Shown here: piece after piece, positions 34,318-52,249 of the stretch
How the letters are laid out: each line of letters starts with the position of its first letter
Numbering within the stretch: the first letter of the stretch is position 1
Source of the DNA: Escherichia coli
Lineage (GTDB): Bacteria; Pseudomonadota; Gammaproteobacteria; Enterobacterales; Enterobacteriaceae
Assembly: GCF_003018235.1 (NCBI RefSeq)
Contig: NZ_CP027437.1
Strand: one strand, 5' to 3'
Length of the DNA stretch: 64,000 bases
The notes under the pieces: generated by a model
Databases searched by the model: none
Seen by the model: the letters and a program-made list of their open reading frames with translations, nothing else
What the model was told of the DNA's origin: nothing
Position numbers and translations under genes: made by a program

Positions 34318-34518
34318 TTAATTTGATTTATTTGCATCCATTAGCGCTTTTAACTGCTCCGGCGTAAACGGTGGTTTGCGTCGGTGCAACATCGCATGGC
34401 AATTAGGGCACACAGGAAGCAAATCATTAACTGGATCCAGCTGGTAATCCTCTTTAATGGCTGAAAGCGGCACCAGGTGATGCACATTAAGCAATTTCAG
34501 AACCGCATGCTCATACAT
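34318..34518 (-). pseudogene. HNH-motif remnant ORF (66 aa), probably the C-terminal fragment of a degraded gene
   Basis: CPNCHAMLH HNH-like motif. Short ORF directly downstream of the 202-aa ORF on the same strand. Confidence 0.4.
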
Positions 34519-34655: not shown

Positions 34656-35264
34656 TTAACGATGTATCAGAACAATCTTGCGCCGGGAGAATAGCGTTTC
34701 CGCAGACAGCTGGAATTTATATTCCGCGGCCTTCAGCTTTCGCGATTTAAGCATTTTCATCGTGATACCCCTTATTTTCCCTGACTCAACCTGTCTCTTG
34801 ATTTCGCCGGTGCTCAGCATGAGCTGCTTTTGCAAAATCGACAGCAGGCTGACCTGAAACGAACGGGAAATCCTGACGCTAACCTTGACCCATTTGCCGG
34901 GAGAAAGGCTGGCTAACCACTGCTCCTGAATGCGAAAATCAGGCCGACCCGATAGCTCTGCGTTGTTCCGCTTCAGCATCGCGATATCACAGGAAAAATG
35001 TTGAACCGTGGCTGCATCGTTGCTCATCAGCCGGTTATGAAGTTCGCGGTCAATTTTGCTGACGTGCAGGCGCGAAAATAGGGAGATATTCCAGGTGTAA
35101 TCACAGTGTGTGCATTTATAGATACTCCACACGTCCAGCACCTTCTTTTGCGAATTAATCCGAAATGCACCTGATGGCGTGAAGTCCCGTTTAATGTTGC
35201 ATGAAGGGCATCGCTTCGCAATGCGCTGATACCCCACGGGCGTGACGGTCCATGTAACTTTCAT
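34656..35264 (-). CDS. Hypothetical Cys-rich (zinc-finger-like) protein
   Basis: 202-aa ORF with CPSCN...CTHCDYTW motifs. No confident family assignment. Confidence 0.45.
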   Translation of the reverse strand: MKVTWTVTPVGYQRIAKRCPSCNIKRDFTPSGAFRINSQKKVLDVWSIYKCTHCDYTWNISLFSRLHVSKIDRELHNRLMSNDAATVQHFSCDIAMLKRNNAELSGRPDFRIQEQWLASLSPGKWVKVSVRISRSFQVSLLSILQKQLMLSTGEIKRQVESGKIRGITMKMLKSRKLKAAEYKFQLSAETLFSRRKIVLIHR

Positions 35265-35559
35265 AACCTACCTTTTTTAACCCATACAAAACCGGATCCG
35301 TACTGAACGGACCATGGATGTTTATGTATGAAAAATATTTAAGAGATATTTTTCAGAGGGTTAAAAAAAGATTTCCAACTATGCAATCCTGTCGGTGAGC
35401 AAAGAGATATAGCGAGACTATCAAAACGGCAATTATTGGGTATATGAGTTCAATCAATATTCATGATGGTTATGGCTTGTTCTATTGATCTGACACATTA
35501 AACACGGCGCATTAATTTTGTATGTTTTATGAACAACCCAACAACAAAAGGAGCGCGAT

Positions 35560-35811
35560 ATGACACAGCACGAACGGTTTTGTCAGGCCTGCGGAATGCC
35601 GATGTCCGCACCTGATGCGCAGGGGAGTAGCGATAAATACTGTGCATACTGCAGCGATAGCAACGGCAATCTTAAACCCTGGGAAGAGGCGGTATCAGGC
35701 TTGGCCAGCTTCCTTGATTCCTGGCAAAAAGTCGGTCCAGAAGAAGCACAGAAGCGTGCAAAACGTTATCTGACGGCAATGCCTGCCTGGGCTCATAAAG
35801 CGGACGAGTGA
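35560..35811 (+). CDS. Small zinc-ribbon protein (hypothetical)
   Basis: 83-aa ORF with CQACGMP...CAYCSD (CxxC-N-CxxC). Confidence 0.45.
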   Translation: MTQHERFCQACGMPMSAPDAQGSSDKYCAYCSDSNGNLKPWEEAVSGLASFLDSWQKVGPEEAQKRAKRYLTAMPAWAHKADE

Positions 35812-35875
35812 ATAACAAAGTCAGGGTGATTTAGGCAGTCTATCTTCACTCCGCTGATTCCATTAAGGAGAGCCG

Positions 35876-36268
35876 ATGTTTTCTCACATTATGCTTGGAA
35901 CCAACAACCTGCCACGCGCCATTGCATTCTACGATCCGTTGATGGATATGCTGGGGTATCCCCGCGGCGGCAGGAAGAGGAGATCGCATGGTGGGGCGTT
36001 TTCAACGGTAATAACACTACGGCACTGGGTATCAGTAGGCCATTTGATAAACAGGTTGCCACGACCCGAAATGGAGTGATGGTCGCCCTGATTGCGCGTT
36101 CTGCCGAACACATCCAGCAAGTTTCATGTGCTAGCTTTAAATCACGGTGGCACTGACGAGGGAGCACCTGGCCAGCGTCCGCATTACGGCGAAGGGTTCT
36201 ACAGCGCTTACGTCAGAGACACCGATGGCAACAAGCTGGCTTACGTTTATTACACCGCACAATCCTGA
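35876..36268 (+). pseudogene. VOC/glyoxalase-family gene disrupted by frameshifts
   Basis: The N-terminal part MFSHIMLGTNNLPRAIAFYDPLMDMLGYPR is in one frame. The middle (EEEIAWWGVFNGNNTTALGISRPFDKQVATTRNGVMVALIARSAEHIQQV) and C-terminal (HVLALNHGGTDEGAPGQRPHYGEGFYSAYVRDTDGNKLAYVYYTAQS) parts are recovered only by shifting frame. Confidence 0.6.
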
Positions 36269-36512
36269 GAACGATAAAGCGGGGGCCTCAGCGCCCCCAC
36301 CTGAAACTAAACCGATCCCGCAGATGTCAATGAGCGTTGAACGAGTTGATAAATGCCGAGATGTCTGACTGTTTTTACGCCAGAACTCCATGGTGTGACA
36401 ACCATACACATACTCCCTTCTTGACACCTTTAAACCATTTAACCGCATGCCTCTGTCTGCCCTGCAGGGACGGCTGATGCCTGTGTGTTGTCTGGCGGTA
36501 AGGAACAATACT

Positions 36513-36674
36513 ATGTACGCAAAATCCTTTATCGCTCTCGACGGGAATGGTCGTCTGACCGGTGCCCGTACTGCGCAGACCGCCCCTTACGATCGTTATA
36601 CCTGCCACCTCTGCGGTAGCGTGCTGCAATACCATCCTGAATACATCACCGAACGCCCGTGCTTTGAACAGTAA
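36513..36674 (+). CDS. Small hypothetical protein (53 aa)
   Basis: ATG preceded by AGGA. Contains CHLCGS. No family recognised. Confidence 0.3.
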   Translation: MYAKSFIALDGNGRLTGARTAQTAPYDRYTCHLCGSVLQYHPEYITERPCFEQ

Positions 36675-37266
36675 CCAACACACTGACAGAGGGCGGCGAA
36701 AATGCTTTATGCAAATCTTGATGCAAAGGCAGCCAGACGAATTCGTAAGTTACGCTTTTACGTGGCAGATACTCAAAGCAGACTGGCATTGTAGCGACGA
36801 TTGCCACGGTGAACGCTATTGTATGGCATGTAGTACCTGAGACTTCAGCCGCCCAGTAGATATAGCATCATGAAAAAACTGAAATGCTTTCTTGCCAACA
36901 ACTCACTGAGCTAGTATGCCTCCACCGATGTAACAATTAGAGCAAGCGTCAAAGTGCGAAACTGCCCTCACGTAGCTGCAAGTTAACACCAGGAAATCCT
37001 GGTTCAAACACGACCAGCTCTATGTTAGCGGCAAGCAATCGTTGAACTAAACGCATATGCAGCCGGAGATGAAAGTTAGGAAAAAAGCAGAGGCTGATAA
37101 GAATTATGCACGTTGAGCTGGGATCGTAATACCCCACTTAAAATGTACAAGGGGAGTAGTCTAATGATGTTAAATACGAACCTTCAGTATTGTTCATTCA
37201 CCAATTTTCCCATATTCTCTCATCATTAATATTCTCTGCCGAATTTTATAGGGCTAACTCGCTGAA

Positions 37267-37708: not shown

Positions 37709-40246
37709 ATGATAAATGACCATGAAGAACTAGAACTTGCTAAAGCTCAGGCAAAAGAAATATGGAAGATCCTTGATTATGTTCGAGGAGCATCACCTAT
37801 ATCTAATTATCGCTCATTAGCGTATTCAATCTTCTTCGTACGCTATCTTCAATCCAATACAGGTCAGCATTTTGAGGCAGAAAGGTTCGACTCTTTTAAT
37901 GTCATCGCCCAGTATTCCTACGATCTTGTAAACTATGCCGTTCAACTTGGATTGATTCATAGCGACGTATCTAAATTCTTAATTTATTATTTAGAAAACA
38001 CACTCCGTTCATTTGTCAATATTGATGAGTCTTTTGTTCGTTATGCAATTAGAGATGGTCTACTCAATAAAACCCCTGCAATAGCGTCGCTTTCTTTATC
38101 AGAACTGGATTTACTTTTTGCCGAGAATGAAGGTAAGTCAGGAGGTGAGTTTTATACCCCTAGAGACGTCAACTTATTGGTTAAAATATTAGGATTGAGT
38201 TATCAACCAAAGTCAATATGTGACCCATTTGCAGGTGCTGGAAACACAGCATTTCCTTTTGCCAATACTGGTATTGAAAAAGTTAGGATTGATACTCAAG
38301 AAATTAATAGAGATGCTTACTTTAAACTAGTAATAAGTAGAGTCATCAGGAAAATAGAAGGTCGAGACTATTTCGGCGATTCCCTATCACAACCATTATA
38401 TCAAGAAAATAAATATGATCTGATAGTTTCTTTCCCACCTTTTGGCATGAAAATTCCTAAAGCCACTCGAAATAATATTTACTATAAAACAAGTAATAAG
38501 TGGCTGGATATTACTGAAATCTTGCCAGAAAGTAGAAGTGATTGGTTTATAACATTATCAATGCTTCCAGCCCTTTCTGAGGGGGGTAAGATACTAGTAG
38601 GTATGTCACTTGGGGCTTTGACAAGAGCAGGCTCTGAGGCAAAGGTTCGTGAGTATTTAGTCTCTCGCGGAATTATCGAACAAGTAATTCTTTTACCTAA
38701 AAATATTTATTACTCTACGGCTATCTCAACTGTACTTCTTGTCCTCAACTCAGGAACAAGTAACATAAATAACAGAAGTATTAAATTTGTAGATGCTTCA
38801 CTGTTTTACGAGCCTGCCCGTGGTCGAAACACCCTCACAACAAAAAATATAAATGAGATCGTAGAGGCTTGTCATAAAGATGGCCGATTTAGTATTAGTT
38901 CATCTCATACCCAAATAGCAAACAGAGACTTTAATTTAGATCCGTCTCTTTATGTACGTAAAGATCTCAAAATCAGTGAGGTTTCTTTAAAAAATTTTAG
39001 AGGATACTCTGACTTTAAAGTTTCGATACATCCTTCTTTAAATGTATTGGTTGGTGAGAACGGCGTCGGGAAAACTTCGATATTAGAAGCATTAGCATGT
39101 GGCCTTGGTCCTTTCCTTACTGCTATGCCTGATGCTAAAGGAAAACTGATAAAAAAATCAGATATCCATATAAGTTCAAAAGGAATCGCAAATTATGCTC
39201 GAATATCGATTGAAACAACATCAAGTTTAAGTTGGGATCTTGTGGCAAAGGGGGTTGATGTTTCCGAGCCCCCTAAGATAGGAACATCAGCATTAACTAG
39301 CTACGCTACTCATCTTGTAGATAGTCAGTCTGAATATCCACTCATTGCTTATTATGGGACTAACCGTGCTCTTACTTCTACCAGTTCTAAAGTTGCAATA
39401 AATCCATTCGAGAAAGAAAATCGTGGGGAAGGTTATGACTTTGCTTTAGATGCTAAAGTTAACTACGGCATCTTAAAGAACTGGTTTTCAAAAATAGAGG
39501 TTGATGAGCTTCGAAAACGTGATGAACTAAAAGACCATAAATTCATTCATCCGGCTAAGAGACTTGTTTCAGAGGCTGTTTACCAGATTGTTGATCGAGC
39601 TACATGCTTGGAGTTCGACAAAAATAGTAACGATGTTATGGTTCATTGGAAAAATGAGCAGGGAGAGTGCGTAAAGCTTACATTGGAACAACTAAGTGAA
39701 GGGTATAGAAATATGGTATCCCTGACCATTGACCTAGTGAGGCGTGCTTATTTACTTAATCCTACCAAACCGAAACCGCTAACAGTTAATGGGATCGTTT
39801 TAATTGATGAAATTGAACTTCACTTGCACCCTAGATGGCAGCAAAAGATTTTAAATGATCTTACTAAGCTGTTTAAGAATATTCAGTTTATTGTCACGAC
39901 ACATAGTCCTCAAGTCTTAACAACAATCAAAGCCGATTGTATCCGTATTGTTTCCGTCAATGCTAACGAAGCAAAATTAGTGACAGGAACTACTACTTAC
40001 GGTTCTGAAAGCTCAAGAATGTTGGAAGATGTTTTAGGTGGTAACAATCGCGCCCAACATCTTGATATTGTTAAAAAACTAAACCGTTATACAGAGTTAG
40101 TAGAGGCCGACAAATGGGATACCGATGAGGCATTAGAACTCAAAAAAGAGTTATATAAATGGGGTGGTCAGACAGAAGACGAGCTTCAAAAATTAGAAAC
40201 TGATATTCGAATTCGCGAGTTCGAGCGTGGCAATGAAAAAGATTAA
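37709..40246 (+). CDS. Fusion protein: N-terminal HsdM-like N6-adenine DNA methyltransferase domain plus C-terminal ABC/AAA_21-type ATPase domain (PtuA-like)
   Basis: 845-aa ORF. Methyltransferase motifs GGEFYTPRDV, ICDPFAGAGNTAF (motif I) and DLIVSFPPFG (motif IV region). ATPase motifs: Walker A VLVGENGVGKTS, signature-like LSEGYRNMVSL, Walker B VLIDEIELHLHP, H-loop FIVTTHSP. Confidence 0.75.
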   Translation: MINDHEELELAKAQAKEIWKILDYVRGASPISNYRSLAYSIFFVRYLQSNTGQHFEAERFDSFNVIAQYSYDLVNYAVQLGLIHSDVSKFLIYYLENTLRSFVNIDESFVRYAIRDGLLNKTPAIASLSLSELDLLFAENEGKSGGEFYTPRDVNLLVKILGLSYQPKSICDPFAGAGNTAFPFANTGIEKVRIDTQEINRDAYFKLVISRVIRKIEGRDYFGDSLSQPLYQENKYDLIVSFPPFGMKIPKATRNNIYYKTSNKWLDITEILPESRSDWFITLSMLPALSEGGKILVGMSLGALTRAGSEAKVREYLVSRGIIEQVILLPKNIYYSTAISTVLLVLNSGTSNINNRSIKFVDASLFYEPARGRNTLTTKNINEIVEACHKDGRFSISSSHTQIANRDFNLDPSLYVRKDLKISEVSLKNFRGYSDFKVSIHPSLNVLVGENGVGKTSILEALACGLGPFLTAMPDAKGKLIKKSDIHISSKGIANYARISIETTSSLSWDLVAKGVDVSEPPKIGTSALTSYATHLVDSQSEYPLIAYYGTNRALTSTSSKVAINPFEKENRGEGYDFALDAKVNYGILKNWFSKIEVDELRKRDELKDHKFIHPAKRLVSEAVYQIVDRATCLEFDKNSNDVMVHWKNEQGECVKLTLEQLSEGYRNMVSLTIDLVRRAYLLNPTKPKPLTVNGIVLIDEIELHLHPRWQQKILNDLTKLFKNIQFIVTTHSPQVLTTIKADCIRIVSVNANEAKLVTGTTTYGSESSRMLEDVLGGNNRAQHLDIVKKLNRYTELVEADKWDTDEALELKKELYKWGGQTEDELQKLETDIRIREFERGNEKD

Positions 40247-41021
40247 TAAGCTAGATGAGCCAAATCGGCTTGGTGTGTTCAAGGCTACTCATCCTAATGC
40301 TTTGTGGGAGAGGGATAAAAACTCAATTGAAGAGGCTTTCCGTTGTTGCATTGCCAGATATCAAGAAACTCTACAACAATTACGTACGGACCAAGGTAAT
40401 TTATGTGCATATTGTGAACAGGATTTAATGTCTGGAACTAATGGGGCATTAGATGACTGCCGTATTGAGCATTTTCATCCGAAATCTAAACGTGAACAGG
40501 GAGAACCTAATTGGGCTTTGGAATGGAGCAATTTGTTAGTTGTTTGCTGTGGCGGAAATCAAAGTAAAGTTGTTAATCCTGGGCAAAGATTTGATGCTGA
40601 TCCCAAAAATTACTCTTGCGATGTACCAAAGAGTGACAAAATTTTAGATACCATTATATTAAATCCACTTAATTTACCTGAATTAAATATCTGGAAGTTT
40701 CATCGTTCTTCGGGGCAAATTTCCGTAAATGAAGATTCCTGTTTAGAATTTGGTATAAGTGTTGAAATGGCACACCAAACAATTAAAGAATTGAATTTAA
40801 ATTCCCCTCGATTAATTAGATTTCGAAAGGCTATTCTAAATAATCTCAACATTTTAATAACAGAAAGGCTGAAGAAGGGACAAACGGTAGAGCAAGCTGT
40901 TAGATTTATTGCCATATCACTCTTTAGAAAAAATGGAGCAGGTGATTGGCCCTCTTTTTTTAGTGCAACACGATATTATTTAGGTCAGCAGGCTGAGCTT
41001 GTTTTAGCCCAACCTATTTAA
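40233..41021 (+). CDS. HNH endonuclease (PtuB/TIGR02646-like), translationally coupled to the upstream fusion gene
   Basis: 262 aa from MKKINKLDEP. HNH motifs CAYCE, CRIEHFHPKS, NLLVVCCGGN. Its start overlaps the 3' end of the upstream gene by 14 nt. Confidence 0.7.
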   Translation: MKKINKLDEPNRLGVFKATHPNALWERDKNSIEEAFRCCIARYQETLQQLRTDQGNLCAYCEQDLMSGTNGALDDCRIEHFHPKSKREQGEPNWALEWSNLLVVCCGGNQSKVVNPGQRFDADPKNYSCDVPKSDKILDTIILNPLNLPELNIWKFHRSSGQISVNEDSCLEFGISVEMAHQTIKELNLNSPRLIRFRKAILNNLNILITERLKKGQTVEQAVRFIAISLFRKNGAGDWPSFFSATRYYLGQQAELVLAQPI

Positions 41022-45196: not shown

Positions 45197-45281
45197 TGGT
45201 GCCGAAGGCCGGACTCGAACCGGCACGTATTTCTACGGTTGATTTTGAATCAACTGCGTCTACCGATTTCGCCACTTCGGC
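45197..45281 (-). tRNA. leuX: tRNA-Leu (anticodon CAA)
   Basis: The minus-strand sequence reads GCCGAAGTGGCGAAATCGGTAGACGCAGTTGATTCAAAATCAACCGTAGAAATACGTGCCGGTTCGAGTCCGGCCTTCGGCACCA (85 nt), with a CAA anticodon loop and a CCA end. Confidence 0.9.

Positions 45282-50734: not shown

Positions 50735-52249
<1,515 letters not shown>

What the first reader, a model, noticed from the sequence alone, without database searches (positions are those of the whole stretch)
35876..36268. VOC/glyoxalase-family gene broken by two frameshifts
Three segments of one protein are recoverable only by shifting frame, once near the GC-rich tract at about 35965-35975 and once near 36120. This is consistent with decay of island cargo, or with homopolymer sequencing errors.
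Basis: seen in the sequence. Interest (0 to 1): 0.3.

Follow-up and report, generated by a model that had tools for sequence, protein, structure and literature searches.

The report
Dead VOC gene, two frameshifts
This is an ordinary dead gene: a small glyoxalase-type (VOC) enzyme gene in an E. coli genomic island, broken by a real, inherited one-base deletion and a one-base insertion, and already labelled a pseudogene in public annotation.

Summary
Window 35876-36268 (+) is a 393-nt VOC/glyoxalase-family gene. Compared with intact 130-aa orthologues (Salmonella, Klebsiella oxytoca, one metagenome; about 90% nt identity), it lacks one base between 35976 and 35977. It also carries one extra base at 36119-36121. 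The total length is unchanged, but the 48 codons in between are out of frame, so the ATG frame stops at 36077-36079 after 67 aa.

The sequencing-error alternative is excluded. Both indels occur identically in E. coli PapM-32-1, where RefSeq annotates "VOC family protein, frameshifted". They also occur in nine further independent assemblies that form six haplotypes. Neither site is a homopolymer run.

No slippery sequence is present, so programmed frameshifting is very unlikely.

The gene lies at the far end of the leuX tRNA island, between a zinc-ribbon gene that is intact and a DUF7828 gene that is also decayed. Every other E. coli copy I inspected at this locus is also dead, through different lesions: internal stop, 3' truncation, IS truncation, and the K-12 107-nt stub.

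dN/dS against intact orthologues is about 0.2, so the inactivation is recent relative to that divergence.

Verdict: a real, routine pseudogene that is already annotated. Interest is low.

The parts
35560..35811 (+). Intact upstream partner gene, an 83-aa Zn_ribbon_2 protein. It is always found immediately 5' of the VOC gene in orthologous loci.
   Evidence: ORF. Pfam PF12674, E 2.9e-10. The same 83-aa gene precedes the VOC gene in Salmonella, K. oxytoca and a metagenome contig.
35865..35870 (+). Shine-Dalgarno-like AAGGAG, 5 nt upstream of the ATG.
   Evidence: Read directly from the sequence. Inference only: the truncated ORF may still be translated.
35876..35974 (+). VOC pseudogene segment 1: codons 1-33 in the ATG frame.
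   Evidence: 28-30 of 33 residues identical to intact orthologues. DNA alignment.
35975..35977 (+). Frameshift 1: a 1-nt deletion. Codon 34 AAT is reduced to AA, and the missing T falls between 35976 and 35977.
   Evidence: Gap column in the alignments to three intact orthologues and two other E. coli alleles. Shared by L001 and L013-L021.
35977..36120 (+). VOC pseudogene segment 2: codons 35-82, readable only in the -1 frame.
   Evidence: 42-43 of 48 residues identical to intact orthologues in that frame, and 0/49 in the ATG frame.
36077..36079 (+). First premature stop (TGA) in the ATG frame. It ends a 67-aa product; a second TGA lies at 36089-36091.
   Evidence: ORF 35876..36079; translation.
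36119..36121 (+). Frameshift 2: a 1-nt insertion (CAGCAAG versus CAGCAG in intact orthologues). It returns reading to the ATG frame.
   Evidence: Gap column in all other homologues. Shared by L001 and L013-L021.
36122..36268 (+). VOC pseudogene segment 3: codons 83-130 plus the stop codon, in the ATG frame.
   Evidence: 40-41 of 48 residues identical to intact orthologues.
36513..36850 (+). Downstream neighbour, a DUF7828/Zn_ribbon_11 gene that is also a pseudogene, with several indels relative to the intact 130-aa K. oxytoca orthologue.
   Evidence: blastn to L010:4637-5029 gives 76% identity with gaps of 5, 1, 14 and 9 nt. PGAP calls it 'putative zinc ribbon protein, frameshifted' in PapM-32-1.
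45197..45281 (-). tRNA-Leu(CAA), leuX: the integration site of the island that carries the pseudogene.
   Evidence: ARAGORN and Rfam tRNA. A tyrosine integrase lies next to the tRNA in the near-identical CFSAN018748 region.

Best explanation
A genuine, inherited pseudogene of a 130-aa single-domain VOC (glyoxalase / bleomycin-resistance / dioxygenase superfamily) protein.

The ancestral gene belonged to a conserved block: topAI/yjhX, methyltransferase yjhP, Zn_ribbon_2, VOC, DUF7828. This block lies at the distal end of the E. coli leuX tRNA island.

In this lineage a T was lost from codon 34 and an A was gained after codon 82. The first lesion alone ends translation after 67 aa: 33 native residues plus a 34-residue out-of-frame tail. 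That product cannot form the VOC fold, so no enzyme is made. The second indel restores the original length by chance and has no functional effect.

Shown here: the lesions, their inheritance, homology to intact genes, and the island context. Inferred: loss of function, and that the indels are neutral decay events.
For: - **Indels mapped precisely.** Both are located against three intact 393-nt orthologues. Per-segment identities are 28-30/33, 42-43/48 and 40-41/48, against 0/49 for the middle read in the ATG frame.
- **Family assignment.** The repaired protein matches intact 130-aa VOC proteins over 100% of its length at 85-88% identity, with E as low as 2.6e-73. It reaches Pfam PF00903 (21.3 bits against a cutoff of 20.6). 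It matches solved VOC structures 4qb5 (E 2e-16) and 4z04 (E 4e-11).
- **Inheritance.** Both indels are identical in E. coli PapM-32-1, annotated 'frameshifted' by PGAP. They are also identical in nine further assemblies or metagenome contigs from different sequencing runs, giving six haplotypes with 0-5 substitutions. The exact 67-aa truncated product and a near-identical variant are on record from 3 and 40 contigs.
- **Selection.** dN/dS against intact orthologues is 0.19-0.30, so the gene was constrained for most of the divergence. Between the window and PapM-32-1 there are 4 nonsynonymous and 1 synonymous changes.
- **The locus decays repeatedly.** Other E. coli copies carry internal stops (VTB96935v, 14EC033, 19KM1766N), a 3' truncation (XJ23PTE1), an ISEc31 truncation (CFSAN018748) or only a stub (K-12). 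Of 5,426 complete E. coli genomes, 1,770 keep something of the gene, and in the great majority it is only the first 107 nt.
- **Neighbour.** The next gene downstream is also decayed.
Against: - No expression or protein data are available, so loss of function is inferred, not measured.
- A good Shine-Dalgarno sequence and the ATG are retained, so a 67-aa peptide may still be made.
- The post-inactivation substitution counts (4 N : 1 S) are too small to prove relaxed selection.
- The Pfam match of the repaired protein is only just above threshold. Family assignment therefore rests mainly on full-length homology to annotated VOC proteins and to two solved structures.
Confidence: 0.95

Rival explanations
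1. The two frameshifts are sequencing or assembly errors, and the real gene is intact.
For: In principle, single-base indels are the commonest assembly error. The two indels cancel in length.
Against: The same two indels are present in ten other independently sequenced assemblies. These come from SRA runs of different projects, ENA metagenomes and a complete RefSeq genome, and they differ from the window by 0-5 substitutions. Neither site is a homopolymer; both are AA dinucleotides. No intact protein closer than 88% identity exists among 5.8 billion clusters.
Confidence: 0.01
2. Programmed recoding: the ribosome shifts -1 at about 35976 and +1 at about 36120, and so makes a full-length VOC protein.
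For: Length and all three segments are preserved. An SD-like GAGGAG lies next to site 1, and rare Arg codons (AGG, AGA) occur in the ATG frame just after it.
Against: Site 1 has no X_XXY_YYZ slippery heptamer (GGC AGG AAG AGG). Site 2 has no +1 shift-prone codon or stop codon (CAG CAA GTT). Intact orthologues encode the protein in a single frame, so there is no conserved recoding signal. Two separate recoding events in a 130-codon gene have no precedent that I know of. Sister alleles are inactivated by unrelated lesions.
Confidence: 0.01
3. The truncated 67-aa ORF (35876-36079; 33 VOC residues plus a basic out-of-frame tail, RKRRSHGG...) is a retained, functional small protein.
For: The ATG and Shine-Dalgarno sequence are intact. 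The same ORF length is kept in every assembly that carries this allele.
Against: It has no Pfam match. The substitutions inside the 67-aa ORF seen among haplotypes (gene positions 94, 108, 164) all change the residue in that frame: G32S, R36S, G55D. This gives no sign of purifying selection. The ORF end is set by off-frame TGA triplets that already exist in the intact orthologues.
Confidence: 0.03

Closest known systems
RefSeq pseudogene G6Z93_RS20020, 'VOC family protein, frameshifted', E. coli PapM-32-1 (NZ_CP049204.1 4220312-4220704)
   Same: Same allele: 98.5% nt identity, both indels identical, same neighbours (DUF1062, Zn ribbon, decayed DUF7828, methylase, HNH).
   Different: Five substitutions within the gene.
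Intact 130-aa VOC proteins encoded next to a Zn_ribbon_2 gene in Salmonella enterica (P0004), Klebsiella oxytoca (P0003) and a metagenome contig (P0001)
   Same: Orthologous by synteny (Zn_ribbon_2 upstream; DUF7828 downstream in K. oxytoca). Same 393-nt length, about 90% nt identity, and 85-88% aa identity to the repaired translation.
   Different: They have a single open frame. The window copy has -1 and +1 indels and about 16 amino-acid differences.
E. coli K-12 remnant between yjhP and sgcX in the KpLE2 / leuX island region (PGAP: 'VOC family protein; internal stop; incomplete')
   Same: Same locus and the same upstream zinc-ribbon gene. It is also non-functional, and about 1,640 complete E. 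coli genomes carry this 107-nt stub.
   Different: The K-12 type retains only the 5' 107-117 nt and has an internal stop. The window keeps the full length.
Solved VOC-fold proteins PDB 4qb5 and 4z04 (glyoxalase/bleomycin resistance/dioxygenase superfamily proteins, function not named by the depositors)
   Same: Full-length sequence similarity of the repaired protein: residues 1-125, E 2e-16 and 4e-11.
   Different: These are distant relatives, no substrate is known for either of them, and the window gene cannot produce the fold.

Membership tests
VOC superfamily (Pfam PF00903, Glyoxalase/Bleomycin resistance protein/Dioxygenase) | Sequence match to the family profile at or above the curated threshold | tested here: met
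   The repaired translation scores 21.3 bits against a cutoff of 20.6, covering profile positions 3-120 of 121. This is marginal. The unrepaired 67-aa and 58-aa ORFs give no hit.
VOC superfamily (Pfam PF00903, Glyoxalase/Bleomycin resistance protein/Dioxygenase) | Full-length homology to proteins of the family, including ones with solved VOC structures | tested here: met
   100% coverage and 85-88% identity to 130-aa VOC proteins. PDB 4qb5 E 2e-16 and 4z04 E 4e-11 over residues 1-125.
VOC superfamily (Pfam PF00903, Glyoxalase/Bleomycin resistance protein/Dioxygenase) | Paired beta-alpha-beta-beta-beta modules forming a metal or substrate pocket | not tested
   No structure prediction was run. 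It would describe the repaired protein, not anything this locus can encode.
VOC superfamily (Pfam PF00903, Glyoxalase/Bleomycin resistance protein/Dioxygenase) | An uninterrupted reading frame able to encode the domain (a functional member) | tested here: not met
   The ATG frame stops after 67 codons, and the domain is recoverable only across two frame changes.
Pseudogene (inherited, not artefactual) | Frame-disrupting lesions relative to intact orthologues | tested here: met
   A 1-nt deletion at 35976^35977 and a 1-nt insertion at 36119-36121, against three intact orthologues.
Pseudogene (inherited, not artefactual) | The same lesions in independently sequenced relatives | tested here: met
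   Ten other assemblies share both indels, giving six haplotypes. The truncated product is on record from 3 + 40 contigs.
Pseudogene (inherited, not artefactual) | Relaxed selection after inactivation | tested here: inconclusive
   Window against PapM-32-1: 4 nonsynonymous and 1 synonymous changes (omega about 1.2), too few to be significant. Against intact orthologues omega is 0.19-0.30.
Programmed ribosomal frameshift gene | Slippery sequence and stimulatory element at the shift site, conserved among homologues | tested here: not met
   Neither site has a slippery heptamer or shift-prone codon. Homologues are encoded in a single frame.

The most novel reading that the evidence does not exclude
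The 67-aa chimeric ORF created by the first frameshift (33 VOC residues plus a 34-residue arginine-rich out-of-frame tail, with its Shine-Dalgarno sequence intact) is expressed and has acquired a role of its own. That role would explain why the allele persists at full length in dozens of E. coli assemblies.
Probability: 0.03. Interest if true: 0.3.

Novelty: already known. Interest (0 to 1): 0.06.

Why it matters
It matters little. The result confirms that automated annotation ('VOC family protein, frameshifted') is right and that the assembly is accurate at these two sites.

The only mildly useful point is context. The Zn-ribbon / VOC / DUF7828 block is a decaying, conserved landmark at the distal edge of the leuX island. 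It lies next to a slot holding different defence-type cargo in different strains. It could therefore serve as an anchor for finding that variable slot.

Tried and rejected
- **Sequencing error:** rejected. Ten independent assemblies share both indels, and neither site is a homopolymer.
- **Programmed -1/+1 frameshifting:** rejected. There are no slippery motifs, and the orthologues are single-frame.
- **Compensated frameshift giving a full-length variant protein:** rejected. The ATG frame has two TGA stops between the indels (36077, 36089). These off-frame triplets already exist in the intact orthologues.
- **NCBIfam scan of the repaired protein:** no hit.
- **Rfam scan of the whole window:** nothing in or near the gene.
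- **Promoter/terminator consensus scan of 35300-36600:** nothing above the shuffled expectation.
- **Gapped tblastn with the Salmonella protein:** it forced a single-frame alignment through the middle and was uninformative about frames. Per-segment translation was used instead.
- **Antisense ORFs** (35889-36167, 92 aa; 36137-36508, 123 aa): mechanical ORFs with no supporting evidence. Not pursued.

Full report
**Observation**

Window 35876-36268 (+) begins with an ATG that is preceded by AAGGAG at 35865-35870. The ATG frame is open for only 67 codons and stops with TGA at 36077-36079.

Translating the three frames shows VOC-like sequence in the ATG frame at both ends and in the -1 frame in the middle.

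I aligned the DNA with other E. coli alleles and with three intact 393-nt orthologues found through a protein search: Salmonella enterica L008:4001-4393, Klebsiella oxytoca L010:4001-4393 and metagenome contig L012:813-1205. The alignment shows exactly two length differences:
- A deleted T in codon 34 (AAT becomes AA), between 35976 and 35977.
- An inserted base in CAGC[A]AG at 36119-36121.

The identity of each segment to the intact proteins is as follows:

| Segment | Coordinates | Frame | Identity |
|---|---|---|---|
| 1 | 35876-35974 | ATG frame | 28-30/33 |
| 2 | 35977-36120 | -1 frame | 42-43/48 |
| 3 | 36122-36265 | ATG frame | 40-41/48 |
| Middle, misread | between the two indels | ATG frame | 0/49, with two stops |

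**What the gene is**

With the two indels repaired, the 130-aa translation matches intact 130-aa 'VOC family' proteins over its whole length. Identity is 85-88%, and E is as low as 2.6e-73.

The repaired protein reaches the Pfam Glyoxalase model PF00903 just above threshold (21.3 against 20.6 bits). It also aligns over residues 1-125 with two solved VOC-superfamily structures, 4qb5 (E 2e-16) and 4z04 (E 4e-11). NCBIfam has no specific model for it. No substrate is known for this subfamily.

**Real mutation or sequencing error**

Both indels are present, base for base, in E. coli PapM-32-1. There RefSeq/PGAP already annotates the gene as 'VOC family protein, frameshifted'.

The exact 67-aa truncated product is on record from 3 contigs, and a near-identical variant from 40 contigs. 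I fetched nine of these loci, from different SRA, ENA and DDBJ runs and metagenomes. All nine carry both indels. They fall into several haplotypes differing by 0-5 substitutions in the gene, and some have different upstream neighbours.

Neither site is a homopolymer run; each is an AA dinucleotide. The lesions are therefore inherited mutations of some age, not assembly errors.

**Timing and selection**

Against the intact orthologues, dN/dS is 0.19-0.30 at dS of about 0.25-0.30. The gene was therefore constrained over most of that divergence, and the inactivation is comparatively recent.

Between the window and PapM-32-1 there are 4 nonsynonymous changes and 1 synonymous change. This fits neutral drift, but the counts are too few to test.

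No intact protein closer than 88% identity was found among 5.8 billion protein clusters.

**Could it still be decoded?**

The -1 and +1 indels cancel, so the gene keeps its 393-nt length. That does not rescue it, because the ATG frame has TGA codons at 36077 and 36089 between the two sites. These off-frame triplets also exist in the intact orthologues.

Programmed frameshifting would need a -1 event at GGC AGG AAG AGG and a +1 event at CAG CAA GTT. Neither is a slippery or shift-prone sequence, and homologues are encoded in one frame. I reject this reading.

The 67-aa product keeps only 33 native residues and cannot form a VOC domain. This last point is an inference.

**Context**

The window is E. 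coli. It matches E. coli CFSAN018748 at 99.1% over 20 kb.

Read from the tRNA end towards lower coordinates, the region contains:
1. tRNA-Leu(CAA), leuX, at 45197-45281 (-).
2. A tyrosine integrase.
3. A nucleoid-associated protein.
4. A hypothetical gene.
5. An HNH protein (40227-41021).
6. An 845-aa N6-methylase-family protein (37709-40246).
7. Small HTH genes.
8. The decayed DUF7828 gene.
9. The VOC pseudogene.
10. The Zn_ribbon_2 gene.
11. A DUF1062 gene.
12. An HNH fragment.
13. nanS, nanM and nanC, followed by fimB.

The VOC gene is thus at the far end of the leuX island, the position of KpLE2 in K-12. In K-12 the same locus lies between yjhP and sgcX.

In Salmonella and K. oxytoca, the intact gene sits in a conserved block: topAI/yjhX, methyltransferase, Zn_ribbon_2, VOC, then DUF7828 in K. 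oxytoca or an argonaute in Salmonella.

**The locus decays repeatedly in E. coli**

Every E. coli copy I inspected is a pseudogene, but through different lesions:
- Internal stop: VTB96935v, 14EC033, and the more divergent 19KM1766N allele.
- 3' truncation: XJ23PTE1.
- Truncation by ISEc31 at the window equivalent of about 35957: CFSAN018748.
- A 107-117-nt 5' stub with an internal stop: K-12.

Of 5,426 complete E. coli genomes, 1,770 retain something of the gene. At most 13 cover 80% or more of it, and the bulk have only the first 107 nt.

The neighbouring DUF7828/Zn_ribbon_11 gene (36513 to about 36850) is also riddled with indels relative to the intact K. oxytoca orthologue.

**Comparison with the known, and verdict**

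This is a member, in dead form, of the VOC superfamily. It is the same allele as a pseudogene already annotated in RefSeq. Nothing about the lesions, their position or their context calls for a new mechanism.

The finding is real, correctly described and ordinary. Novelty is 'already known', and interest is about 0.06.

The only reading with any novelty is that the 67-aa chimeric ORF is functional. It has no support: there is no family match, and all three substitutions seen within it are nonsynonymous in its frame. I put it at about 3%.

Noticed in passing
window 36513-36850 (+): The gene just downstream (DUF7828/Zn_ribbon_11 family, 130 aa when intact in K. oxytoca) is also a pseudogene. It has gaps of 5, 1, 14 and 9 nt and an early stop after 53 codons. 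PGAP calls it 'putative zinc ribbon protein, frameshifted' in PapM-32-1.
   Followed up: partly
window 37709-41021 (+): An 845-aa 'N-6 DNA methylase' ORF overlaps the start of a 264-aa ORF that PGAP annotates in near-identical strains as 'retron system putative HNH endonuclease'. This is probably the defence-type cargo of this leuX island. I did not scan it against PADLOC.
   Followed up: no
L002 5136-8527; L008 5011-8366; L006 3630-4941; L001 1-1785: Immediately beyond the Zn-ribbon/VOC block, different strains carry different defence-like genes: argonaute/Piwi with a PD-(D/E)XK or DpnII-MboI-type nuclease (E. coli VTB96935v, Salmonella), a TIR-domain protein (XJ23PTE1), and a reverse transcriptase with a phosphoribosyltransferase-like protein (PapM-32-1). 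The decayed block appears to mark the edge of a variable defence-gene slot.
   Followed up: partly
L004 9958-11200 (E. coli CFSAN018748), equivalent to window ~35957 onward: In the otherwise 99% identical CFSAN018748 region, an ISEc31 (IS3 family) element truncates the VOC gene after about 81 nt and replaces the sequence downstream of it. This is an independent inactivation of the same allele.
   Followed up: partly
window 51296-51490 (-): Full-length Rfam match to Ysr276 (RF02850, 'Yersinia sRNA 276', antisense type): 185.8 bits against a gathering score of 100. It is unrelated to the finding.
   Followed up: no
window 34318-34518 (-) and 34656-35264 (-): A 66-aa HNH-endonuclease fragment (annotated 'incomplete, missing N-terminus' in CFSAN018748) lies next to an apparently intact 202-aa DUF1062 gene. 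This is further evidence of gene remnants at this end of the island.
   Followed up: no
window 36280-36300 (+): A GC-rich inverted repeat (GCGGGGGCCTCAGCGCCCCC) lies 12 nt after the VOC stop codon. It has no T-run and the terminator scan did not call it. It may be a remnant transcription terminator or a REP-like hairpin.
   Followed up: no
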